From the UHGV virus genome UHGV-0107510: a DNA stretch of 12,257 nucleotides. One strand, 5' to 3'. The stretch is from a virus. Below are positions 938 to 11,008 of this stretch, piece by piece. The stretch's first letter is position 1. Each line of letters starts with the position of its first letter. Both the position numbers and the translations under genes were made by a program. Below the pieces are notes generated by a model, which made no database searches, had not been told where the DNA came from, and saw only the letters and a program-made list of their open reading frames with translations.

Positions 938-1021
938 CGTAATTACTAATCCGGGGCTATATTCACCGCACGGTCGAGTTGACCGTCGGGATTGAGACCC
1001 CGGATAGAAACCGCGACAGAC

Positions 1022-1044
1022 ACACGCCGCGAGCGTGTTTTTTA
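1022..1044 (+). terminator. Rho-independent terminator candidate
   Basis: Stem ACACGC (1022-1027) / GCGTGT (1033-1038) with a 5-nt loop, followed by TTTTTT (1039-1044). Confidence 0.5.
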
Positions 1045-1204
1045 TTGTCGTATGCACGCGCACATCTGAATTATGGTGGGGCGTATAGGGGAGCTGAAAA
1101 GCTCGCCGGTTGGTTTCCCGGTAGTCTCAACCCTGTACGTCTCACCACCCGACGATTGAGACCTGACGGTGGTGATAGTTTAGAAACCACCCTAGGGTGT
1201 CGTT

Positions 1205-1799: not shown

Positions 1800-2024
1800 T
1801 TACCATCGGGGATAAAATGATTTGCGGGGAAAGAAGAGTTAAGTAGAATTGCTGCGGGTGCTTGAGGCTGTCTGCCTCGGGCATGCCGCCGTAAGGCAGA
1901 CAGAGAAAAGCCCCAGTTAACATTACGCGTCTTGCAGGACGCTTAACATTAATCTGAGGCCAATTTCATGCTTTGCACATGTAGGTTAGCCTCTTACGTG
2001 CCGAAAGGCAAGGAGAAGCAGGCT

Positions 2025-2180
2025 ATGAAGCAGCAAAAGGCGATGTTAATCGCCCTGATTGTCATCTGTTTAACCGTCATAGTGACGGCACTGGTAACGA
2101 GGAAAGACCTCTGCGAGGTACGAATCCGAACCGGCCAGACGGAGGTCGCTGTCTTCACAGCTTACGAACCTGAGGAGTAA
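2025..2180 (+). CDS. hok: Hok/Gef family type I toxin (small membrane-damaging peptide)
   Basis: 51-aa product MKQQKAMLIALIVICLTVIVTALVTRKDLCEVRIRTGQTEVAVFTAYEPEE carries the Hok/Gef signature (N-terminal TM helix, LCEVRIRTGQTEVA motif). AGGAGA Shine-Dalgarno at 2011-2016, 8 nt before the ATG. An in-frame upstream ATG at 1968 would add 19 residues. Confidence 0.9.
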   Translation: MKQQKAMLIALIVICLTVIVTALVTRKDLCEVRIRTGQTEVAVFTAYEPEE

Positions 2181-7393: not shown

Positions 7394-7469
7394 GGCCCTT
7401 TAGCTCAGTGGTGAGAGCGAGCGACTCATAATCGCCAGGTCGCTGGTTCAAATCCAGCAAGGGCCACCA
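7394..7469 (+). tRNA. ileZ: tRNA-Ile (anticodon CAU, ileX-like; formally could be tRNA-Met)
   Basis: 76 nt with full cloverleaf: acceptor GGCCCTT/AAGGGCC, anticodon loop CTCATAA (CAT at 7427-7429), T-loop TTCAAAT, encoded CCA. Closely resembles E. coli tRNA-Ile2 (ileX) as I recall it. Gene names follow the ileZ-argN-argO trio described upstream of stx in Stx phages. Confidence 0.85.
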
Positions 7470-7478
7470 TATCACATA

Positions 7479-7555
7479 CCGCCATTAGCTCATCGGGATA
7501 GAGCGCCAGCCTTCGAAGCTGGCTGCGCGGGGTTCGAGTCCTCGATGGCGGTCCA
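7479..7555 (+). tRNA. argN: tRNA-Arg (anticodon UCG)
   Basis: 77 nt: acceptor CCGCCAT/ATGGCGG, D-stem GCTC/GAGC, anticodon stem CCAGC/GCTGG with loop CTTCGAA (TCG at 7513-7515), T-loop TTCGAGT, discriminator T then CCA. Confidence 0.8.
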
Positions 7556-7568
7556 TTATCAGCATCAT

Positions 7569-7645
7569 GCGTTGTTAGCTCAGCCGGACAGAGCAATTGC
7601 CTTCTAAGCAATCGGTCACTGGTTCGAATCCAGTACAACGCGCCA
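7569..7645 (+). tRNA. argO: tRNA-Arg (anticodon UCU, reads AGA/AGG)
   Basis: 77 nt: acceptor GCGTTGT/ACAACGC, D-stem GCTC/GAGC, anticodon stem ATTGC/GCAAT with loop CTTCTAA (TCT at 7603-7605), T-stem ACTGG/CCAGT, T-loop TTCGAAT, discriminator G then CCA. Confidence 0.85.
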
Positions 7646-7683: not shown

Positions 7684-7814
7684 GTCTCCGCGCCACGCCC
7701 GGCGCATATCAACCACAGAGCTTTCGGGGGTGAGCTTACGGAGTGGTCAGTGTGACTTTCTCTGTGGGCAGATCGCTCCCGGGCGTTGGCTCACCCACCC
7801 AAAGGAACGTCACG

Positions 7815-8246
7815 ATGTTTGGAATCTTCAAAAAGAAAACCCGCAGAGCGGCTGCGGAAATTAAAAAGTTTGAAAAACGCGATCTGGCACAAGCAGTGAT
7901 TAACGCTGCATACCTGGTGGCTTATGCCGATGGTGAATGTGAGGCTTCCGAGAAAGCGAAGATCGAACAGGTATTACGTAACCAGCCCACCTTGTCCGCG
8001 TTTACGTCAGAAATTAATGCGATTAGCGCAACCATTATCGGTCAGCTGGATACGAACTTTAAAATTGGTCGTCGTGCGGCGTTACGTGAGATCGAGGATG
8101 TGAAACACGATACGCGTGAAGCGGAAGACGTGCTGGATGTGGCGGTGGCCATTGCCGAAGCAGACGGCGAAATAGAGCCGGAAGAGCGCAAGGTGCTGGA
8201 AGAGATTGCCGGTGTTCTGGGCCTTCGTCTGGAGAATCATCTGTGA
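7815..8246 (+). CDS. TerB-family (tellurite resistance TerB-like) protein
   Basis: 143-aa product from ATG 7815, with AAGGAA Shine-Dalgarno at 7802-7807. It has the duplicated acidic TerB signature (…LVAYADGECEASEKAKIEQVL… and …AVAIAEADGEIEPEERKVLEEIAGVLGL…), which aligns by eye with canonical TerB. The listed ATG at 7743 lacks a Shine-Dalgarno and adds a non-conserved extension. Confidence 0.75.
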   Translation: MFGIFKKKTRRAAAEIKKFEKRDLAQAVINAAYLVAYADGECEASEKAKIEQVLRNQPTLSAFTSEINAISATIIGQLDTNFKIGRRAALREIEDVKHDTREAEDVLDVAVAIAEADGEIEPEERKVLEEIAGVLGLRLENHL

Positions 8247-8254
8247 CGGTAAAA

Positions 8255-8407
8255 ATGCGTCTGGCTGTGGTTGCGCTCCTGCTGTTTCTGGTGGTGATGG
8301 TGGACTTCAGCAGCCGGATAATGTCAGTGCTGGCTGACGGTGTGCTGGTGGCGGGTGTGGTGGTTGTTGCTTTCCCGTTGCTGAAAAAGAAAGCATCAGG
8401 CGATTAG
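8255..8407 (+). CDS. 50-aa hydrophobic membrane peptide (two predicted TM segments)
   Basis: MRLAVVALLLFLVVMVDFSSRIMSVLADGVLVAGVVVVAFPLLKKKASGD: two hydrophobic stretches and a KKK-containing C-terminus. Starts 8 nt after the TerB-like stop, suggesting co-transcription. Below the ORF-track length cut-off; found by manual translation. Confidence 0.4.
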   Translation: MRLAVVALLLFLVVMVDFSSRIMSVLADGVLVAGVVVVAFPLLKKKASGD

Positions 8408-8647
8408 CAGGGTATCAGTTACCCGTTGAAATTTTTAAATACCTCACAATTCAGGCGGTTGACTGTTGTCTGGTTTGCGGGGAGTTTGTTAAAAGAAACT
8501 GGCATGGTGAATCCCCCTGTGCGGAGGGGCAATCAGCAACTGGTGTTTTGTCACCGACCCTTATCCTTTCTGTGCGGGTTCAGGTGCTGATACTGAACTC
8601 ACCGGGAGGCACCCGGCACCATGCAATGGCACATAGCGCCACTCTCC

Positions 8648-8674
8648 AGCCCCTCTCCGGAGGGGCTTTCTTGT
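8648..8674 (+). terminator. Intrinsic terminator candidate
   Basis: Perfect 8-bp stem AGCCCCTC / GAGGGGCT with loop TCCG, followed by a T-rich tail TTCTTGT. Confidence 0.5.
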
Positions 8675-8678
8675 GGGC

Positions 8679-8705
8679 AAAAAAAAAGCCCGAGTGGGTT
8701 CGGGC
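8679..8705 (-). terminator. Minus-strand intrinsic terminator
   Basis: On the + strand, A9 (8679-8687) is followed by hairpin GCCCGA-GTGGGT-TCGGGC (8688-8705). Read on the minus strand this is a GC hairpin followed by U9. No T-run follows on the + strand. Confidence 0.5.
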
Positions 8706-8760
8706 AACAGCATGAGATATACATTTTTATAATCGAATGGATTTTAACCAGAATTCATAA

Positions 8761-8787
8761 GGCTGCGCAACTGCGCGGCCTTTTTCG
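8761..8787 (+). terminator. Intrinsic terminator candidate
   Basis: Stem GGCTGCGC / GCGCGGCC (8 bp, one G:T wobble) with loop AACT, followed by TTTTT (8781-8785). Confidence 0.5.
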
Positions 8788-8888
8788 TATTGCGGGCTGT
8801 AGTCTTCCTCCTGCCATTGTCCTGTAACTTCCGGACTTCAGCCCGTTCCCTCATCTGACTCACAACATTATCCCGACCGGGAGGATTC

Positions 8889-10868
8889 ATGACATTTAAA
8901 CACTACGATGTGGTCAGGGCGGCGTCGCCGTCAGACCTTGCGGAGCGACTGACACAAAAACTGAAGGAGGGGTGGCAGCCATTTGGCAGCCCTGTCGCCA
9001 TCACGCCTTATACCCTGATGCAGGCCATTGCGGCGGAAGGTGATGTCACCACACCTGTGGTGGTGAAGCCGTCGGATGGAGAAGGCACAGTTATCAGCAC
9101 CACCAGCGAACCGGAGTATTACTTTGTTGTTGTTCTGGCGGGGCAGTCAAACTCAATGTCTTTTGGTGAAGGGCTGCCGCTGCCGGAGACATATGACCGT
9201 CCGGACCCGCGTATTAAACAGCTGGCGCGTCGCAGTACGGTGACGCCGGGTGGTGCCGCCTGTAAATATAACGACATCATTCCGGCAGACCACTGTCTGC
9301 ATGATGTGCAGGATATGAGTAACCTGAATCATCCTGAAGCGGACTTGTCAAAGGGACAGTACGGTTGTGTGGGGCATGCTCTGCATGTTGCCAAAAAGCT
9401 GCTGCCGTTTATGCCTGCGAATGCGGGTATCCTTCTTGTTCCATGTGGCCGTGGCGATTCGGGATTTACTGCGGGGGCCGAGGGGGCGTTTAACGAAGCG
9501 TCGGGAGCGACCGCAGGCTCGTCCCTGTGGGGGGCGGATAAACCGCTGTATCATGACCTGGTCAGCAGAACCCGTGCGGCCCTGAAGAAAAATCCGAAGA
9601 ACGTGCTGTTATCAGTGATCTGGATGCAGGGAGAAAAAGATGTCAGTTCGGGGAGACATGCAGAACACAATGCGCTTTTCCTTGCCATGGTAAATCAGTT
9701 CCGTACGGAACTGGCAGATGTGGCAGAGCAGTGTACTGGCGGGACAACGGCCAGCGTCCCGTGGATTTGCGGTGATACCACGTACTACTGGAAGGAAAGG
9801 TATGCAGCGCCGTATGAGGCGGTTTACGGTGGGTATAAAGGCAAAGTTGCGCAGAATATTCACTTTGTGCCGTTGATGACGGATGAGCATGGTGTGAATG
9901 TGCCGACAAACGAGCCGTCAGAAGATCCGGACATTATCCCGGCGGGATACTATGGCGCTGCGTCACGCACTGCCAGTAACTGGACGGCAGCCGATCGTAA
10001 AACGCACTTCAGTTCATGGGCGCGAAGAGGCCTTGTTTCAGACCGCCTGGCAGGTGCCATTTTGCAGTACGCCGGGCGGACATTATCGTTCCTTACCGGG
10101 CAGAGCGCACCGCAGTCGGGTGGTACAACTCCTGTCAGTCCGGGGACACCGGATGTTGAGAAACCGCAGGATGGCGGTGTTGCTGGTACTGGTCATGATG
10201 AGGCCGTGAGCAGTACCAGGACGGTGGCTGAATATGATGCGAACAGTGGAAATGGTGCATTGACAGAGCAGCAGTGGGGCGCTTCCGGCGGCAAAGGCAC
10301 TGTGACTGATGACGGTGGACGGAAAGCGCTGCGACTGGAAAAACAGCCCGGTAAACTGACGTCCTGGAAAATGTTCCGTACTGTTGCAGTGGAGGAGGCA
10401 AAAAATCTTCTCAGCAAGGGGGGTGAAATTGCCGTACGGTTCAAAATTCCGGATGGAAGCGAACTGGTGAACGGACAGTTTGTCTTTGGTCTCTACTGGC
10501 CGGTGTCGCAGTGGGCGTCAGGCGCGGCAGCAAACAGTATGCTGGCATCATTCTTCCTTCAGACGGATGCATCAAATCTGAATCTTATGCACCACAAGGG
10601 CACGTCGAATGCACAACTGGGTACATTTGGTGCGTTTGACCATAACTGGCATACGGTTGTTTTCCGCTTTGCGGGAAATAACAGCGAAAGAGTCGTTCCG
10701 GTGATTGATGGTACAGAGCAGACGGCGTTTGACCTTGTGATGTGGACAAATGATGGCTTTACAGCAGATACGCTGACGCTGACAGATATCACGGGGACAA
10801 AAGCGACGTATCCGGTACTGCTTGATACGGTCACTGTCAACGTTAACGAAAGCCGGGCATCAGCATAA
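8889..10868 (+). CDS. nanS-p: NanS-p-like prophage sialate O-acetylesterase (DUF1737 N-terminal domain, esterase core, C-terminal domain after a Gly/Thr/Pro-rich linker)
   Basis: 659-aa ORF with GGGAGG Shine-Dalgarno. The N-terminus MTFKHYDVVRAASPSDLAERLTQKLKEGWQPFGSPV matches the DUF1737 start of the gene found just downstream of stx in Stx phages; the esterase core starts near VVVLAGQSNSMSFG. Confidence 0.85.
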   Translation: MTFKHYDVVRAASPSDLAERLTQKLKEGWQPFGSPVAITPYTLMQAIAAEGDVTTPVVVKPSDGEGTVISTTSEPEYYFVVVLAGQSNSMSFGEGLPLPETYDRPDPRIKQLARRSTVTPGGAACKYNDIIPADHCLHDVQDMSNLNHPEADLSKGQYGCVGHALHVAKKLLPFMPANAGILLVPCGRGDSGFTAGAEGAFNEASGATAGSSLWGADKPLYHDLVSRTRAALKKNPKNVLLSVIWMQGEKDVSSGRHAEHNALFLAMVNQFRTELADVAEQCTGGTTASVPWICGDTTYYWKERYAAPYEAVYGGYKGKVAQNIHFVPLMTDEHGVNVPTNEPSEDPDIIPAGYYGAASRTASNWTAADRKTHFSSWARRGLVSDRLAGAILQYAGRTLSFLTGQSAPQSGGTTPVSPGTPDVEKPQDGGVAGTGHDEAVSSTRTVAEYDANSGNGALTEQQWGASGGKGTVTDDGGRKALRLEKQPGKLTSWKMFRTVAVEEAKNLLSKGGEIAVRFKIPDGSELVNGQFVFGLYWPVSQWASGAAANSMLASFFLQTDASNLNLMHHKGTSNAQLGTFGAFDHNWHTVVFRFAGNNSERVVPVIDGTEQTAFDLVMWTNDGFTADTLTLTDITGTKATYPVLLDTVTVNVNESRASA

Positions 10869-10873
10869 CCGGC

Positions 10874-10911
10874 AAAAAAAAACCGCCAGCGGCAGGAACG
10901 GAAGCTGGCGG
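10874..10911 (-). terminator. Minus-strand intrinsic terminator candidate
   Basis: On the + strand, A9 (10874-10882) is followed by stem CCGCCAGC (10883-10890) / GCTGGCGG (10904-10911) with a 13-nt loop. A hairpin followed by a U-run exists only on the minus strand. Confidence 0.4.
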
Positions 10912-11008
10912 AGGTAATCCCAATGGAGAATGTAAAGAAAAGATGCTTTCGTACATTGGTTTTTTAAATGAAAACAGTTCTCATTGTCAACCATAACGGT
11001 AAGAAACT

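What the first reader, a model, noticed from the sequence alone, without database searches (positions are those of the whole stretch)
8408..8888. A 480-bp non-coding spacer before nanS-p carrying back-to-back terminators of opposite polarity: possible small RNA locus
The spacer contains three GC-rich terminator-like hairpins: + strand at 8648-8674, minus strand at 8679-8705 (hairpin plus U9 on the minus strand), and + strand at 8761-8787, plus a further hairpin CCCCT-GTGCGG-AGGGG at 8513-8530. A perfect TATAAT lies at 8728-8733, about 30 nt upstream of the third hairpin. Convergent terminators imply transcription entering from both sides, so short structured RNAs may be made here. The only ORF in the track (8621-8827) runs through the hairpins and looks spurious. 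I have an uncertain recollection that regulatory sRNAs have been reported in late regions of EHEC lambdoid prophages, but cannot link that to this sequence.
Basis: partly seen in the sequence, partly recalled or inferred. Interest (0 to 1): 0.5.

Follow-up and report, generated by a model that had tools for sequence, protein, structure and literature searches.

The report
Known prophage small-RNA pair (STnc100 / AsxR-type)

Summary
Two curated Rfam families explain most of them. STnc100 (8473-8678, + strand, 144.5 bits against a cut-off of 47) contains the 8513-8530 hairpin and ends at the 8648-8674 terminator. An AsxR-family anti-sRNA (8735-8683, minus strand, 63.0 bits, equal to the cut-off) ends at the hairpin plus U9.

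This is the "convergent sRNA pair" or "dyad" that Tree et al. 2014 described between the moron and the esterase/lysis genes of lambdoid prophages. The spacer is homologous to the stx2B-ECs1207 spacer of the Sakai Stx2 phage.

The minus-strand RNA here has a 5' seed that differs from AsxR, AgvB and EcOnc03. It loses most of the predicted pairing to FnrS, so its target is unknown.

The third hairpin (8759-8787) belongs to neither RNA. It is a + strand terminator-like leader element that always accompanies the esterase gene. Its DNA also carries the -35 (TTGCGC) of the minus-strand promoter. No Hfq-bound RNA is reported there.

The TATAAT lies inside the sponge's seed, is not conserved and is not enriched. 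ORF 8621-8827 is spurious.

Verdict: already known, with low to moderate interest.

The parts
8444..8472 (+). Probable 5' extension of the STnc100-type RNA, containing the conserved block TCACAATTCAGnnnGTTGAC(T/A)G
   Evidence: - The block is invariant between the window and Sp5, although the sequence to its left is unrelated.
- Each of the two tandem STnc100 units in ABU 83972 starts with it.
- A 5' end here gives a ~233-nt RNA, matching the ~235-nt EcOnc27 band. This last step is an inference.
8473..8678 (+). STnc100 / EcOnc27 / sRNA103-type Hfq-binding sRNA (Rfam core)
   Evidence: - RF02076: 144.5 bits against a gathering score of 47, E = 1e-32, full model 1-206.
- The Sp5 homologue scores 207.7 bits.
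8513..8530 (+).
   Evidence: - It matches the consensus stem <<<<<______>>>>> of the Rfam model.
- It is invariant between the window and Sp5 apart from one loop base.
8648..8675 (+). Intrinsic terminator of the STnc100-type RNA; the U-tract is interrupted (UUUCUUGU)
   Evidence: - Found by the terminator scan.
- Fold -20.2 kcal/mol, z = -2.7.
- Compensatory variants occur in other loci: GCCCCTC/GAGGGGC against GCTCCTC/GAGGAGC.
8679..8735 (-). Short anti-sRNA (sponge) of the AsxR/AgvB/EcOnc03 family, fourth seed type: CGAUUAUAAAAAUGUAUAUCUCAUGCUGUU + GCCCGAACCCACUCGGGC + U9
   Evidence: - RF02703: 63.0 bits, equal to the gathering score. RF02702: 43.4 bits, below its gathering score.
- The 3' part is identical to EcOnc03, and the 5' part is AsxR-like with four substitutions.
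- The same variant occurs in 11 of the fetched loci and in 152 E. coli genome records.
8679..8705 (-). Intrinsic terminator of the anti-sRNA (6-bp GC stem plus U9), back-to-back with the + terminator
   Evidence: - Found by the terminator scan.
- Present in the centroid fold.
8741..8770 (-). Predicted sigma-70 promoter of the anti-sRNA: -10 TAAAAT (8746-8741), 18-nt spacer, -35 TTGCGC (8770-8765)
   Evidence: - The same geometry is found in every partner family across the listed distinct sequences.
- The predicted start coincides with the RACE-mapped AsxR 5' end.
8759..8787 (+). Third hairpin: + strand terminator-like stem (AAGGCUGCGC-AACU-GCGCGGCCUU) plus U5. It is the left edge of the esterase leader, and its DNA contains the -35 above
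   Evidence: - Found by the terminator scan.
- Fold -18.3 kcal/mol, z = -5.3.
- 140 of 144 cells pair on the + strand, against 111 of 144 on the minus strand.
- 127 of 129 occurrences are followed by the esterase start 108-125 nt later.
8792..8846 (+). Long stem-loop in the esterase 5' leader
   Evidence: - Present in the MFE fold and the alifold consensus.
- 96% of cells pair, with two pairs showing double changes.
- The wobble pattern is + strand-specific: 269 of 280 against 236 of 280.
8728..8733 (+). TATAAT hexamer: probably incidental, since it is the reverse complement of nt 3-8 of the anti-sRNA seed
   Evidence: - Not enriched.
- No -35.
- Not conserved in other seed types.
8243..8407 (+). 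Upstream flank: DUF3927 ORF. It is the last gene of the TerB + DUF3927 moron, which occupies the position of stx2AB
   Evidence: - Pfam PF13064, E = 4.8e-20; TerB PF05099 for 7743-8243.
- RefSeq annotation of near-identical loci agrees.
8889..10868 (+). Downstream flank: nanS-p-type sialate O-acetylesterase (DUF1737 + SASA + DUF6645)
   Evidence: - Pfam matches.
- 596 relatives in viral contigs.

Best explanation
The spacer is the sRNA dyad that lambdoid prophages carry between the moron downstream of PR' (here TerB + DUF3927, after three tRNAs) and the esterase and lysis genes.

**Plus strand.** Transcription entering from the left ends at the 8648-8675 terminator. This yields an STnc100/EcOnc27-type Hfq-binding RNA of roughly 205-235 nt.

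**Minus strand.** A sigma-70 promoter (-35 at 8770-8765, -10 at 8746-8741) starts a 53-57-nt RNA at 8735. That RNA ends at the hairpin plus U9 (8705-8679), a few nucleotides from the + terminator.

**How the short RNA acts.** By homology with AsxR and AgvB, it is an Hfq-bound sponge.
- Its conserved 3' two-thirds plus U-tail bind Hfq.
- Its variable 5' end base-pairs with and neutralises a core-genome sRNA.
- The seed here is a fourth type. It has lost the central U.G of the AsxR-FnrS duplex, so its target is probably not FnrS or GcvB and is unknown.

**The two terminators.** Together they keep each transcript from running antisense through the other.

**The third hairpin.** It is not part of either RNA. 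It is a + strand intrinsic terminator at the head of the esterase leader. Most likely it is a fail-safe stop for read-through of the weak-U-tract STnc100 terminator, or for stray starts in the sponge gene. The esterase and lysis genes would then be expressed only by Q-modified polymerase.

**Shown and inferred.**
- Shown here: sequence and structure membership, synteny, promoter geometry and strand bias.
- Shown by others on homologues: transcripts, Hfq dependence and sponge action.
- Inferred: expression of this copy, its target and the role of hairpin 3.
For: **Identity of the two RNAs.**
- Rfam matches.
- The spacer is collinear with the Sp5 stx2B-ECs1207 spacer, which has the same two Rfam hits at the same relative positions.

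**Published description of the arrangement.**
- Tree et al. [quoted passage not shown] They give Northern, RACE and Hfq data and show sponge activity of AsxR on FnrS and of AgvB on GcvB (PMC4104026).
- A later review calls them dyads (PMC7873438).

**Seed type and target.**
- The catalogue of seed variants shows four types with a shared 3' module.
- RNAduplex reproduces the published AsxR-FnrS terminator-loop pairing: -7.3 kcal/mol, with 0.7% of shuffles as good. The window variant gives only -4.6 kcal/mol, with 9% of shuffles as good.
- Pairing of the window variant with GcvB is no better than shuffles, whereas AgvB gives -26.0 kcal/mol.

**Promoter.** The geometry is conserved in all partner families.

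**Hairpin 3.**
- It is the strongest fold outlier.
- It carries G.U wobbles that work only on the + strand.
- It is linked to the esterase start in 127 of 129 occurrences, whichever partner RNA lies upstream.
Against: - No expression data exist for this exact copy or seed variant.
- The AsxR match sits exactly at the gathering score, not above it.
- I could not find a convincing sigma-70 promoter for the STnc100-type RNA, so whether it is a primary transcript or a processed 3' end of the moron/tRNA transcript is open.
- Covariation support for hairpin 3 and the leader stem is modest, because the sequences are close relatives. Three of 20 pairs show double changes, and 49 of 500 shuffles reach that count.
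- Conservation of part of hairpin 3 could be due to the embedded -35 alone.
- The fail-safe role of hairpin 3 is inference only.
Confidence: 0.82

Rival explanations
1. A third small RNA exists. The TATAAT at 8728-8733 starts a + strand transcript near 8740 that ends at hairpin 3 (about 45-50 nt), diverging from the sponge gene.
For: - The -10 hexamer is perfect and sits about 30 nt upstream of a strong terminator.
- Hairpin 3 is selected as a + strand RNA.
Against: - The hexamer is not enriched and has no -35.
- It lies in the variable seed of the sponge and is absent from the other seed types, which nevertheless keep hairpin 3.
- It would compete with the overlapping sponge promoter.
- No Hfq-CRAC peak lies beyond the 5' end of AsxR, EcOnc03 or AgvB in Sakai. 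Sakai does not carry this seed type, however.
Confidence: 0.08
2. The minus-strand RNA is simply an AsxR orthologue that still sponges FnrS and de-represses chuS.
For: - It is the best Rfam match.
- Nt 1-7 (CGAUUAU) are identical to AsxR, and 5 bp of the FnrS pairing remain.
Against: - U8 to A converts the central U.G of the 11-bp duplex into A.G. The predicted energy falls from -7.3 to -4.6 kcal/mol, which is the level of the non-cognate EcOnc03 and AgvB.
- Three further substitutions fall at seed nt 13-16.
- This is prediction only, without accessibility or Hfq effects.
Confidence: 0.2
3. The hairpins are only transcriptional insulators around a moron. The RNAs released have no trans-acting function in this prophage: they are a 3' UTR remnant and a decaying sponge.
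For: - The function of STnc100/EcOnc27 is still undefined.
- No target could be predicted for this seed.
Against: - The STnc100 unit is conserved over 200 nt with its structure. It occurs without any moron CDS (L004) and in two to four tandem copies.
- The sponge gene and promoter are at least 99% identical in 152 genome records.
- Homologues are among the most abundant Hfq ligands, and AgvB gives a fitness effect.
Confidence: 0.1
4. The spacer encodes small proteins, for example ORF 8621-8827, or the hypothetical proteins annotated in some phage records.
For: - ORFs of 41-68 aa exist on both strands.
- Some phage records annotate hypothetical proteins here.
Against: - No Pfam match.
- The ORF crosses three terminators.
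- Homologous spacers differ by frame-breaking indels and by whole-module swaps.
- RefSeq annotates nothing here.
Confidence: 0.02

Closest known systems
AsxR (EcOnc02, Rfam RF02703) of Stx2 phage Sp5, and its relatives AgvB (RF02702) and EcOnc03
   Same: - Position: convergent to STnc100, between the moron and the esterase.
- Size, promoter geometry and 5' CGAUUAU.
- The conserved AUCUCAUGC...GCCCGAACCCACUCGGGC-U-run module.
- The 3' part is identical to EcOnc03.
   Different: - Seed nt 8 and 13-16, and nt 27-28, differ from AsxR.
- Predicted FnrS pairing is largely lost, and there is no GcvB target motif (CACAACA).
- It sits in a non-Stx prophage with a TerB/DUF3927 moron, and is found in ExPEC-type genomes rather than O157.
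STnc100 (RF02076) = EcOnc27 (Sakai) = sRNA103 (EDL933); related to PasD of EPEC
   Same: - Full-length covariance-model match, same internal stems and terminator.
- Same place immediately after the moron.
[quoted passage not shown]
   Different: - About 75-80% identical to the Sp5 copy, with several indels in the central part.
- The 5' end is not mapped here.
- PasD-type spacers (class C) lack the convergent partner, and their own terminator sits where hairpin 3 is.
The 'convergent sRNA pair' or 'dyad' architecture of lambdoid prophages (Tree et al. 2014; Sy and Tree review 2021)
   Same: Exactly this arrangement: two Hfq-binding sRNA genes tail to tail, downstream of PR' and upstream of the lysis genes.
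   Different: None in kind. This analysis adds two points:
- The minus-strand slot is filled by at least three unrelated RNA families, all using one fixed -35.
- A third + strand terminator follows the dyad.
Q-overridden intrinsic terminators of lambdoid late operons (tR' type)
   Same: Hairpin 3 is a GC-rich stem plus U-run on the late-transcript strand, upstream of late genes.
   Different: - It lies kilobases downstream of PR'/tR', after the moron and dyad.
- It overlaps a promoter on the other strand.
- Neither termination nor Q read-through has been tested.

Membership tests
AsxR/AgvB anti-sRNA family (RF02703/RF02702; Tree et al. 2014) | Covariance-model score at or above the curated gathering score | tested here: met
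   RF02703 scores 63.0 bits against a gathering score of 63, so it is met exactly at the threshold. RF02702 scores 43.4 against 56, which is not met.
AsxR/AgvB anti-sRNA family (RF02703/RF02702; Tree et al. 2014) | Highly conserved ~42-nt 3' region with a Rho-independent terminator, and a variable 14-18-nt 5' region | tested here: met
   The 3' 35 nt are identical to EcOnc03, and the 5' region is distinct from all three named members.
AsxR/AgvB anti-sRNA family (RF02703/RF02702; Tree et al. 2014) | Unusually short primary transcript (51-60 nt) | tested here: inconclusive
   The promoter geometry predicts 53 nt plus the U-tail, starting at the position homologous to the RACE-mapped AsxR 5' end. 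No transcript data exist for this copy.
AsxR/AgvB anti-sRNA family (RF02703/RF02702; Tree et al. 2014) | [quoted passage not shown] | tested here: met
   The gene order is Q-like gene, methylase, three tRNAs, TerB, DUF3927, dyad, esterase. It is collinear with Sp5.
AsxR/AgvB anti-sRNA family (RF02703/RF02702; Tree et al. 2014) | Binds Hfq and antagonises a core-genome sRNA through its 5' region | not testable with these tools
   Duplex prediction only: FnrS pairing is weakened, and GcvB pairing is no better than shuffles.
STnc100 (RF02076) / EcOnc27 / sRNA103 | Covariance-model score above the gathering score over the full model | tested here: met
   144.5 bits against 47, model positions 1-206 of 206.
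STnc100 (RF02076) / EcOnc27 / sRNA103 | Discrete Hfq-associated transcript of ~235/247 nt ending at the intrinsic terminator | not testable with these tools
   Shown for the Sp5 homologue only. The terminator is present here.
Intrinsic (Rho-independent) terminator, applied to hairpin 3 | GC-rich stem-loop immediately followed by a U-run on the transcribed strand | tested here: met
   A 10-bp stem with 7 GC pairs, a 4-nt loop and U5; -18.3 kcal/mol, z = -5.3. The substitutions are + strand wobbles.
Intrinsic (Rho-independent) terminator, applied to hairpin 3 | Causes transcript 3' ends in vivo or in vitro | not testable with these tools
   No 3'-end data were found. No Hfq peak is listed there in Sakai.
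   The TATAAT is present only in this seed type, has no -35 and is not enriched.

The most novel reading that the evidence does not exclude
Hairpin 3 is a dual-use element.
- As RNA, it is a + strand terminator and leader guarding the esterase and lysis genes.
- As DNA, it provides the fixed -35 of a cassette slot. Unrelated short Hfq-binding RNA genes have been swapped into that slot: AsxR/AgvB/EcOnc03-type, a ~67-nt class B RNA, and others absent from Rfam.

On this reading, the occupant in this window is a fourth sponge specificity, directed at a host sRNA other than FnrS or GcvB. Q-driven late transcription through the slot would then shut the sponge off. That would give a rationale for the dyad arrangement, which the literature calls unexplained.
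Probability: 0.25. Interest if true: 0.45.

Novelty: already known. Interest (0 to 1): 0.25.

Why it matters
Prophage sponge RNAs rewire core sRNA networks. AsxR acts on FnrS and so on haem use; AgvB acts on GcvB and so on amino-acid uptake and fitness in bovine mucus.

This copy shows that the same dyad sits in non-Stx prophages of commensal and extraintestinal E. coli. At least 152 of the 20,395 complete-genome records searched (5,426 genomes) carry this exact gene, and it is never annotated. Its seed has not been characterised.

Identifying its target would extend the known set of anti-sRNA specificities. The fixed -35 inside the hairpin, together with the swappable partner RNA, may help explain why the dyad arrangement is maintained. 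For genome annotation, the practical point is that these 480 bp are two RNA genes plus a leader, not hypothetical ORFs.

Tried and rejected
1. **Weak Rfam hits on hairpin 3.** Leu_leader, OmrA-B, SorY and StyR-143 score 17-25 bits, far below their gathering scores. They are terminator-only resemblances and were rejected.
2. **A promoter for the STnc100-type RNA.** The invariant TTGAC(T/A) at 8459-8464 has no usable -10 at 16-18 nt, and the scan found nothing on the + strand. The 5' end is left unresolved, as either a primary start near 8444 or processing.
3. **A + strand promoter for hairpin 3.** There is only the non-conserved TATAAT.
4. **Hfq-CRAC peaks over hairpin 3.** None is listed in Sp5, Sp9, Sp10 or Sp17 in Tree et al. 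Table S2.
5. **Whole-molecule RNAduplex of the window seed against FnrS and GcvB.** The result is no better than shuffles.
6. **The genome-contig scan.** It returned only six loci, mostly distant esterases without the spacer, so it was of little use.
7. **Literature on nanS-p.** No description of a terminator or leader upstream of the gene was found.
8. **Coding potential of ORF 8621-8827.** There is no family match, and homologues carry frame-breaking indels.

Full report
**Observation**

The region was read directly. It lies between a 54-aa DUF3927 ORF (8243-8407), which is preceded by a TerB-family ORF, and a 659-aa esterase with DUF1737, SASA and DUF6645 domains (8889-10868).

- + strand 8648-8667.
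- Minus strand 8705-8688, followed by nine T.
- + strand 8759-8782.

The scan lists four sites, against 1.2 +/- 1.1 in shuffles.

Folding with shuffled controls gives these values:

| Element | Energy (kcal/mol) | z |
|---|---|---|
| + terminator | -20.2 | -2.7 |
| Third hairpin, + strand | -18.3 | -5.3 |
| 8513-8530 hairpin alone | - | -1.0 |

- The third hairpin folds less well on the minus strand, at -14.8 kcal/mol with an internal mismatch.
- The TATAAT at 8728-8733 is real but not unusual: 2.7 copies are expected in the window.

**Identity**

A scan of the window against Rfam at the curated thresholds returns two families inside the spacer:
- STnc100 (RF02076) at 8473-8678 on the + strand. 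It scores 144.5 bits against a cut-off of 47, over the full model.
- AsxR (RF02703) at 8735-8683 on the minus strand. It scores 63.0 bits, equal to the cut-off.

The related AgvB model scores 43.4 bits, below its cut-off.

- The 8513-8530 hairpin is a consensus stem of STnc100.
- The 8648 hairpin is the STnc100 terminator.
- The hairpin plus U9 is the AsxR-type terminator.

**Homology with the Sakai Stx2 phage**

The stx2B-ECs1207 spacer of E. coli O157 Sakai prophage Sp5 is 486 bp, against 481 bp here. It has the same two Rfam hits in the same relative positions.

The two spacers align end to end. They are nearly identical from the anti-sRNA terminator to the esterase ATG. They diverge, with several small indels, in the centre of STnc100.

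**Literature**

Tree et al. 2014 (PMC4104026) found that the most abundant new Hfq ligands of Sakai are 51-60-nt RNAs. [quoted passage not shown]

In Sp5 the pair is as follows:

| RNA | Strand | Northern size | Hfq |
|---|---|---|---|
| EcOnc27 | + | ~235 and 247 nt | The 247-nt form is destabilised without Hfq |
| EcOnc02 = AsxR | minus | 54 nt | Destabilised without Hfq |

What these RNAs do:
- AsxR pairs through its 5' end with the terminator loop of FnrS. It destabilises FnrS and de-represses chuS.
- AgvB mimics a GcvB target.
- A later review calls the arrangement a "dyad" and says that why it occurs is unclear. It equates EcOnc27 with sRNA103 of EDL933 (PMC7873438).
- STnc100 downstream of stx2 is discussed in PMC12370729 and PMC12711010.

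**This copy of the sponge RNA**

Among about 90 homologous spacers, fetched by anchoring on the esterase, the minus-strand RNA occurs with four 5' seeds on one conserved 3' module:
- AsxR type.
- AgvB type.
- EcOnc03 type.
- The window's type: CGAUUAUAAAAAUGUAUAUCUCAUGCUGUU.

The window's type is the commonest among these loci. The 81-nt gene plus promoter is at least 99% identical in 152 complete E. coli genome records, and nothing is annotated there. O157 strains reach only 85-87% identity, so this seed type was not among those studied in Sakai.

RNAduplex reproduces the published AsxR-FnrS interaction, in which nt 1-11 of AsxR pair with the FnrS terminator loop and 3' arm:
- AsxR 12-mer: -7.3 kcal/mol, with 0.7% of shuffles as good.
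- Window 12-mer: -4.6 kcal/mol, with 9% of shuffles as good. U8 to A replaces a central U.G with A.G.
- The window seed pairs with GcvB no better than shuffles.

The target of this seed is therefore unknown. This rests on prediction only.

**The spacer is modular**

STnc100 is present in every spacer class that has any of these elements:
- Once in most loci.
- Twice in ABU 83972.
- Four times in L032.
- Directly after the tRNAs, with no moron CDS, in L004.

Each STnc100 unit begins with the invariant block TCACAATTCAG...GTTGAC. A 5' end at that block would give about 233 nt here, matching the ~235-nt EcOnc27 band. This is an inference.

The minus-strand slot is filled by unrelated RNAs:
- The anti-sRNA family.
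- A ~67-71-nt class B RNA. Its own terminator shows compensatory changes.
- Other RNAs.

None of the non-AsxR partners matches any Rfam family.

**The third hairpin**

It is part of neither known RNA. The evidence is:
- In 127 of 129 occurrences in viral contigs, the M[A/T]FKHYDV esterase start follows 108-125 nt later, whichever partner RNA lies upstream. The hairpin therefore belongs to the esterase leader.
- Its substitutions are G.U wobbles that are valid only on the + strand. 140 of 144 cells pair on the + strand, against 111 of 144 on the minus strand.
- A second long stem follows at 8792-8846, with the same strand bias (269 of 280 against 236 of 280).
- Formal counts for the two helices give 93.9% of cells paired, against 27-42% when partners are slid. 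Three of 20 pairs show double changes, and 7 cells do (0 of 500 shuffles reach 7). This is modest, because the sequences are close relatives.
- On the minus strand, the inner left arm and the first two loop bases of the hairpin read TTGCGC. An 18-nt spacer and then TAAAAT or TATTAT follow in every partner family. The predicted start coincides with the RACE-mapped AsxR 5' end.
- The hairpin DNA therefore doubles as the -35 of the partner promoter.
- No Hfq-bound peak is listed over the equivalent position in Sp5, Sp9, Sp10 or Sp17.
- The nanS-p literature I could search does not mention the hairpin.

My best reading is a fail-safe + strand terminator. It would stop read-through of the STnc100 terminator, whose U-tract here is interrupted (UUUCUUGU). 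It would also stop stray initiation within the sponge gene. The esterase and lysis genes would then be reached only by Q-modified polymerase. This is inference.

**The TATAAT**

It is the reverse complement of nt 3-8 of the sponge seed. It is absent from the other seed types, lacks a -35 and is not enriched. A third sRNA starting from it is unlikely, at about 8%.

**The ORF**

ORF 8621-8827 has no family match. It crosses both RNA genes, and the homologous spacers differ by frame-breaking indels and module swaps.

**Verdict**
- The element is an already known prophage sRNA dyad: an STnc100/EcOnc27-type RNA with an AsxR-family sponge.
- The residual points of interest are the uncharacterised seed of this sponge and the dual-use third hairpin.

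Noticed in passing
window 10874-10992, minus strand: Immediately after the esterase stop codon there is another minus-strand hairpin plus T9 (stem 10895-10883). It is preceded by TTGACA-N18-TAAAAA, which predicts an ~85-nt RNA convergent with the esterase gene. The position matches where PasA and PasC are reported, between the esterase and the holin, but I had no PasA/PasC sequence to compare.
   Followed up: partly
window 8792-8846 (+), and the SD-proximal CCCG-N2-CGGG at about 8870-8880: The esterase 5' leader contains a long, conserved stem-loop with + strand-specific wobble changes and a few compensatory pairs. A short hairpin also partly covers the Shine-Dalgarno sequence. No Rfam family matches, and the function is unknown.
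   Followed up: partly
L004 about 2285-2375 and 37 other viral loci (class B); also L070, L074, L076, L032: In place of the AsxR-type RNA, other prophages carry unrelated minus-strand RNA genes that use the same -35. One example is a ~67-71-nt RNA: GCUGAAAUAUUACUUCACGUUUUGUUGUUUAUUCCUUGCCGCCCGCGUCUCCCAGCGCGGGCUUUUU. None matches any Rfam family.
   Followed up: partly
L207 (E. coli ABU 83972) 1709-2673; L032 1180-2295: The same spacer is 965 bp in ABU 83972 and related ExPEC genomes. It holds two tandem STnc100 units, separated by an extra terminator-like hairpin (GGCCCATCCGCTCCGGTGGGCCTTTTT). One viral contig has four tandem STnc100 copies.
   Followed up: partly
window 970-1152 (+): Rfam finds isrK (970-1043, 52.4 bits) and C4 antisense RNA (1069-1152, 70.5 bits) side by side. 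This is the P1/P7-type c4 immunity RNA arrangement, and it is also present in Sp5.
   Followed up: no
window 1856-2180 (+): A sok antitoxin RNA matches at 117.3 bits (1856-2030) and overlaps the start of a 70-aa ORF (1968-2180). This is probably a hok/sok-type toxin-antitoxin locus inside the prophage.
   Followed up: no
window 7394-7642 (+): Three tRNA genes lie upstream of the TerB/DUF3927 moron. They are in the position of ileZ-argN-argO upstream of stx2 in Sp5, so the TerB + DUF3927 pair occupies the stx slot.
   Followed up: no
window 8663-8691: The tail of the + terminator and the A-run of the minus terminator are mutually complementary (GGGCTTTCTT / AAAAAAGCCC, 90%). Read-through transcripts could therefore form an alternative hairpin spanning both terminators.
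   Followed up: no
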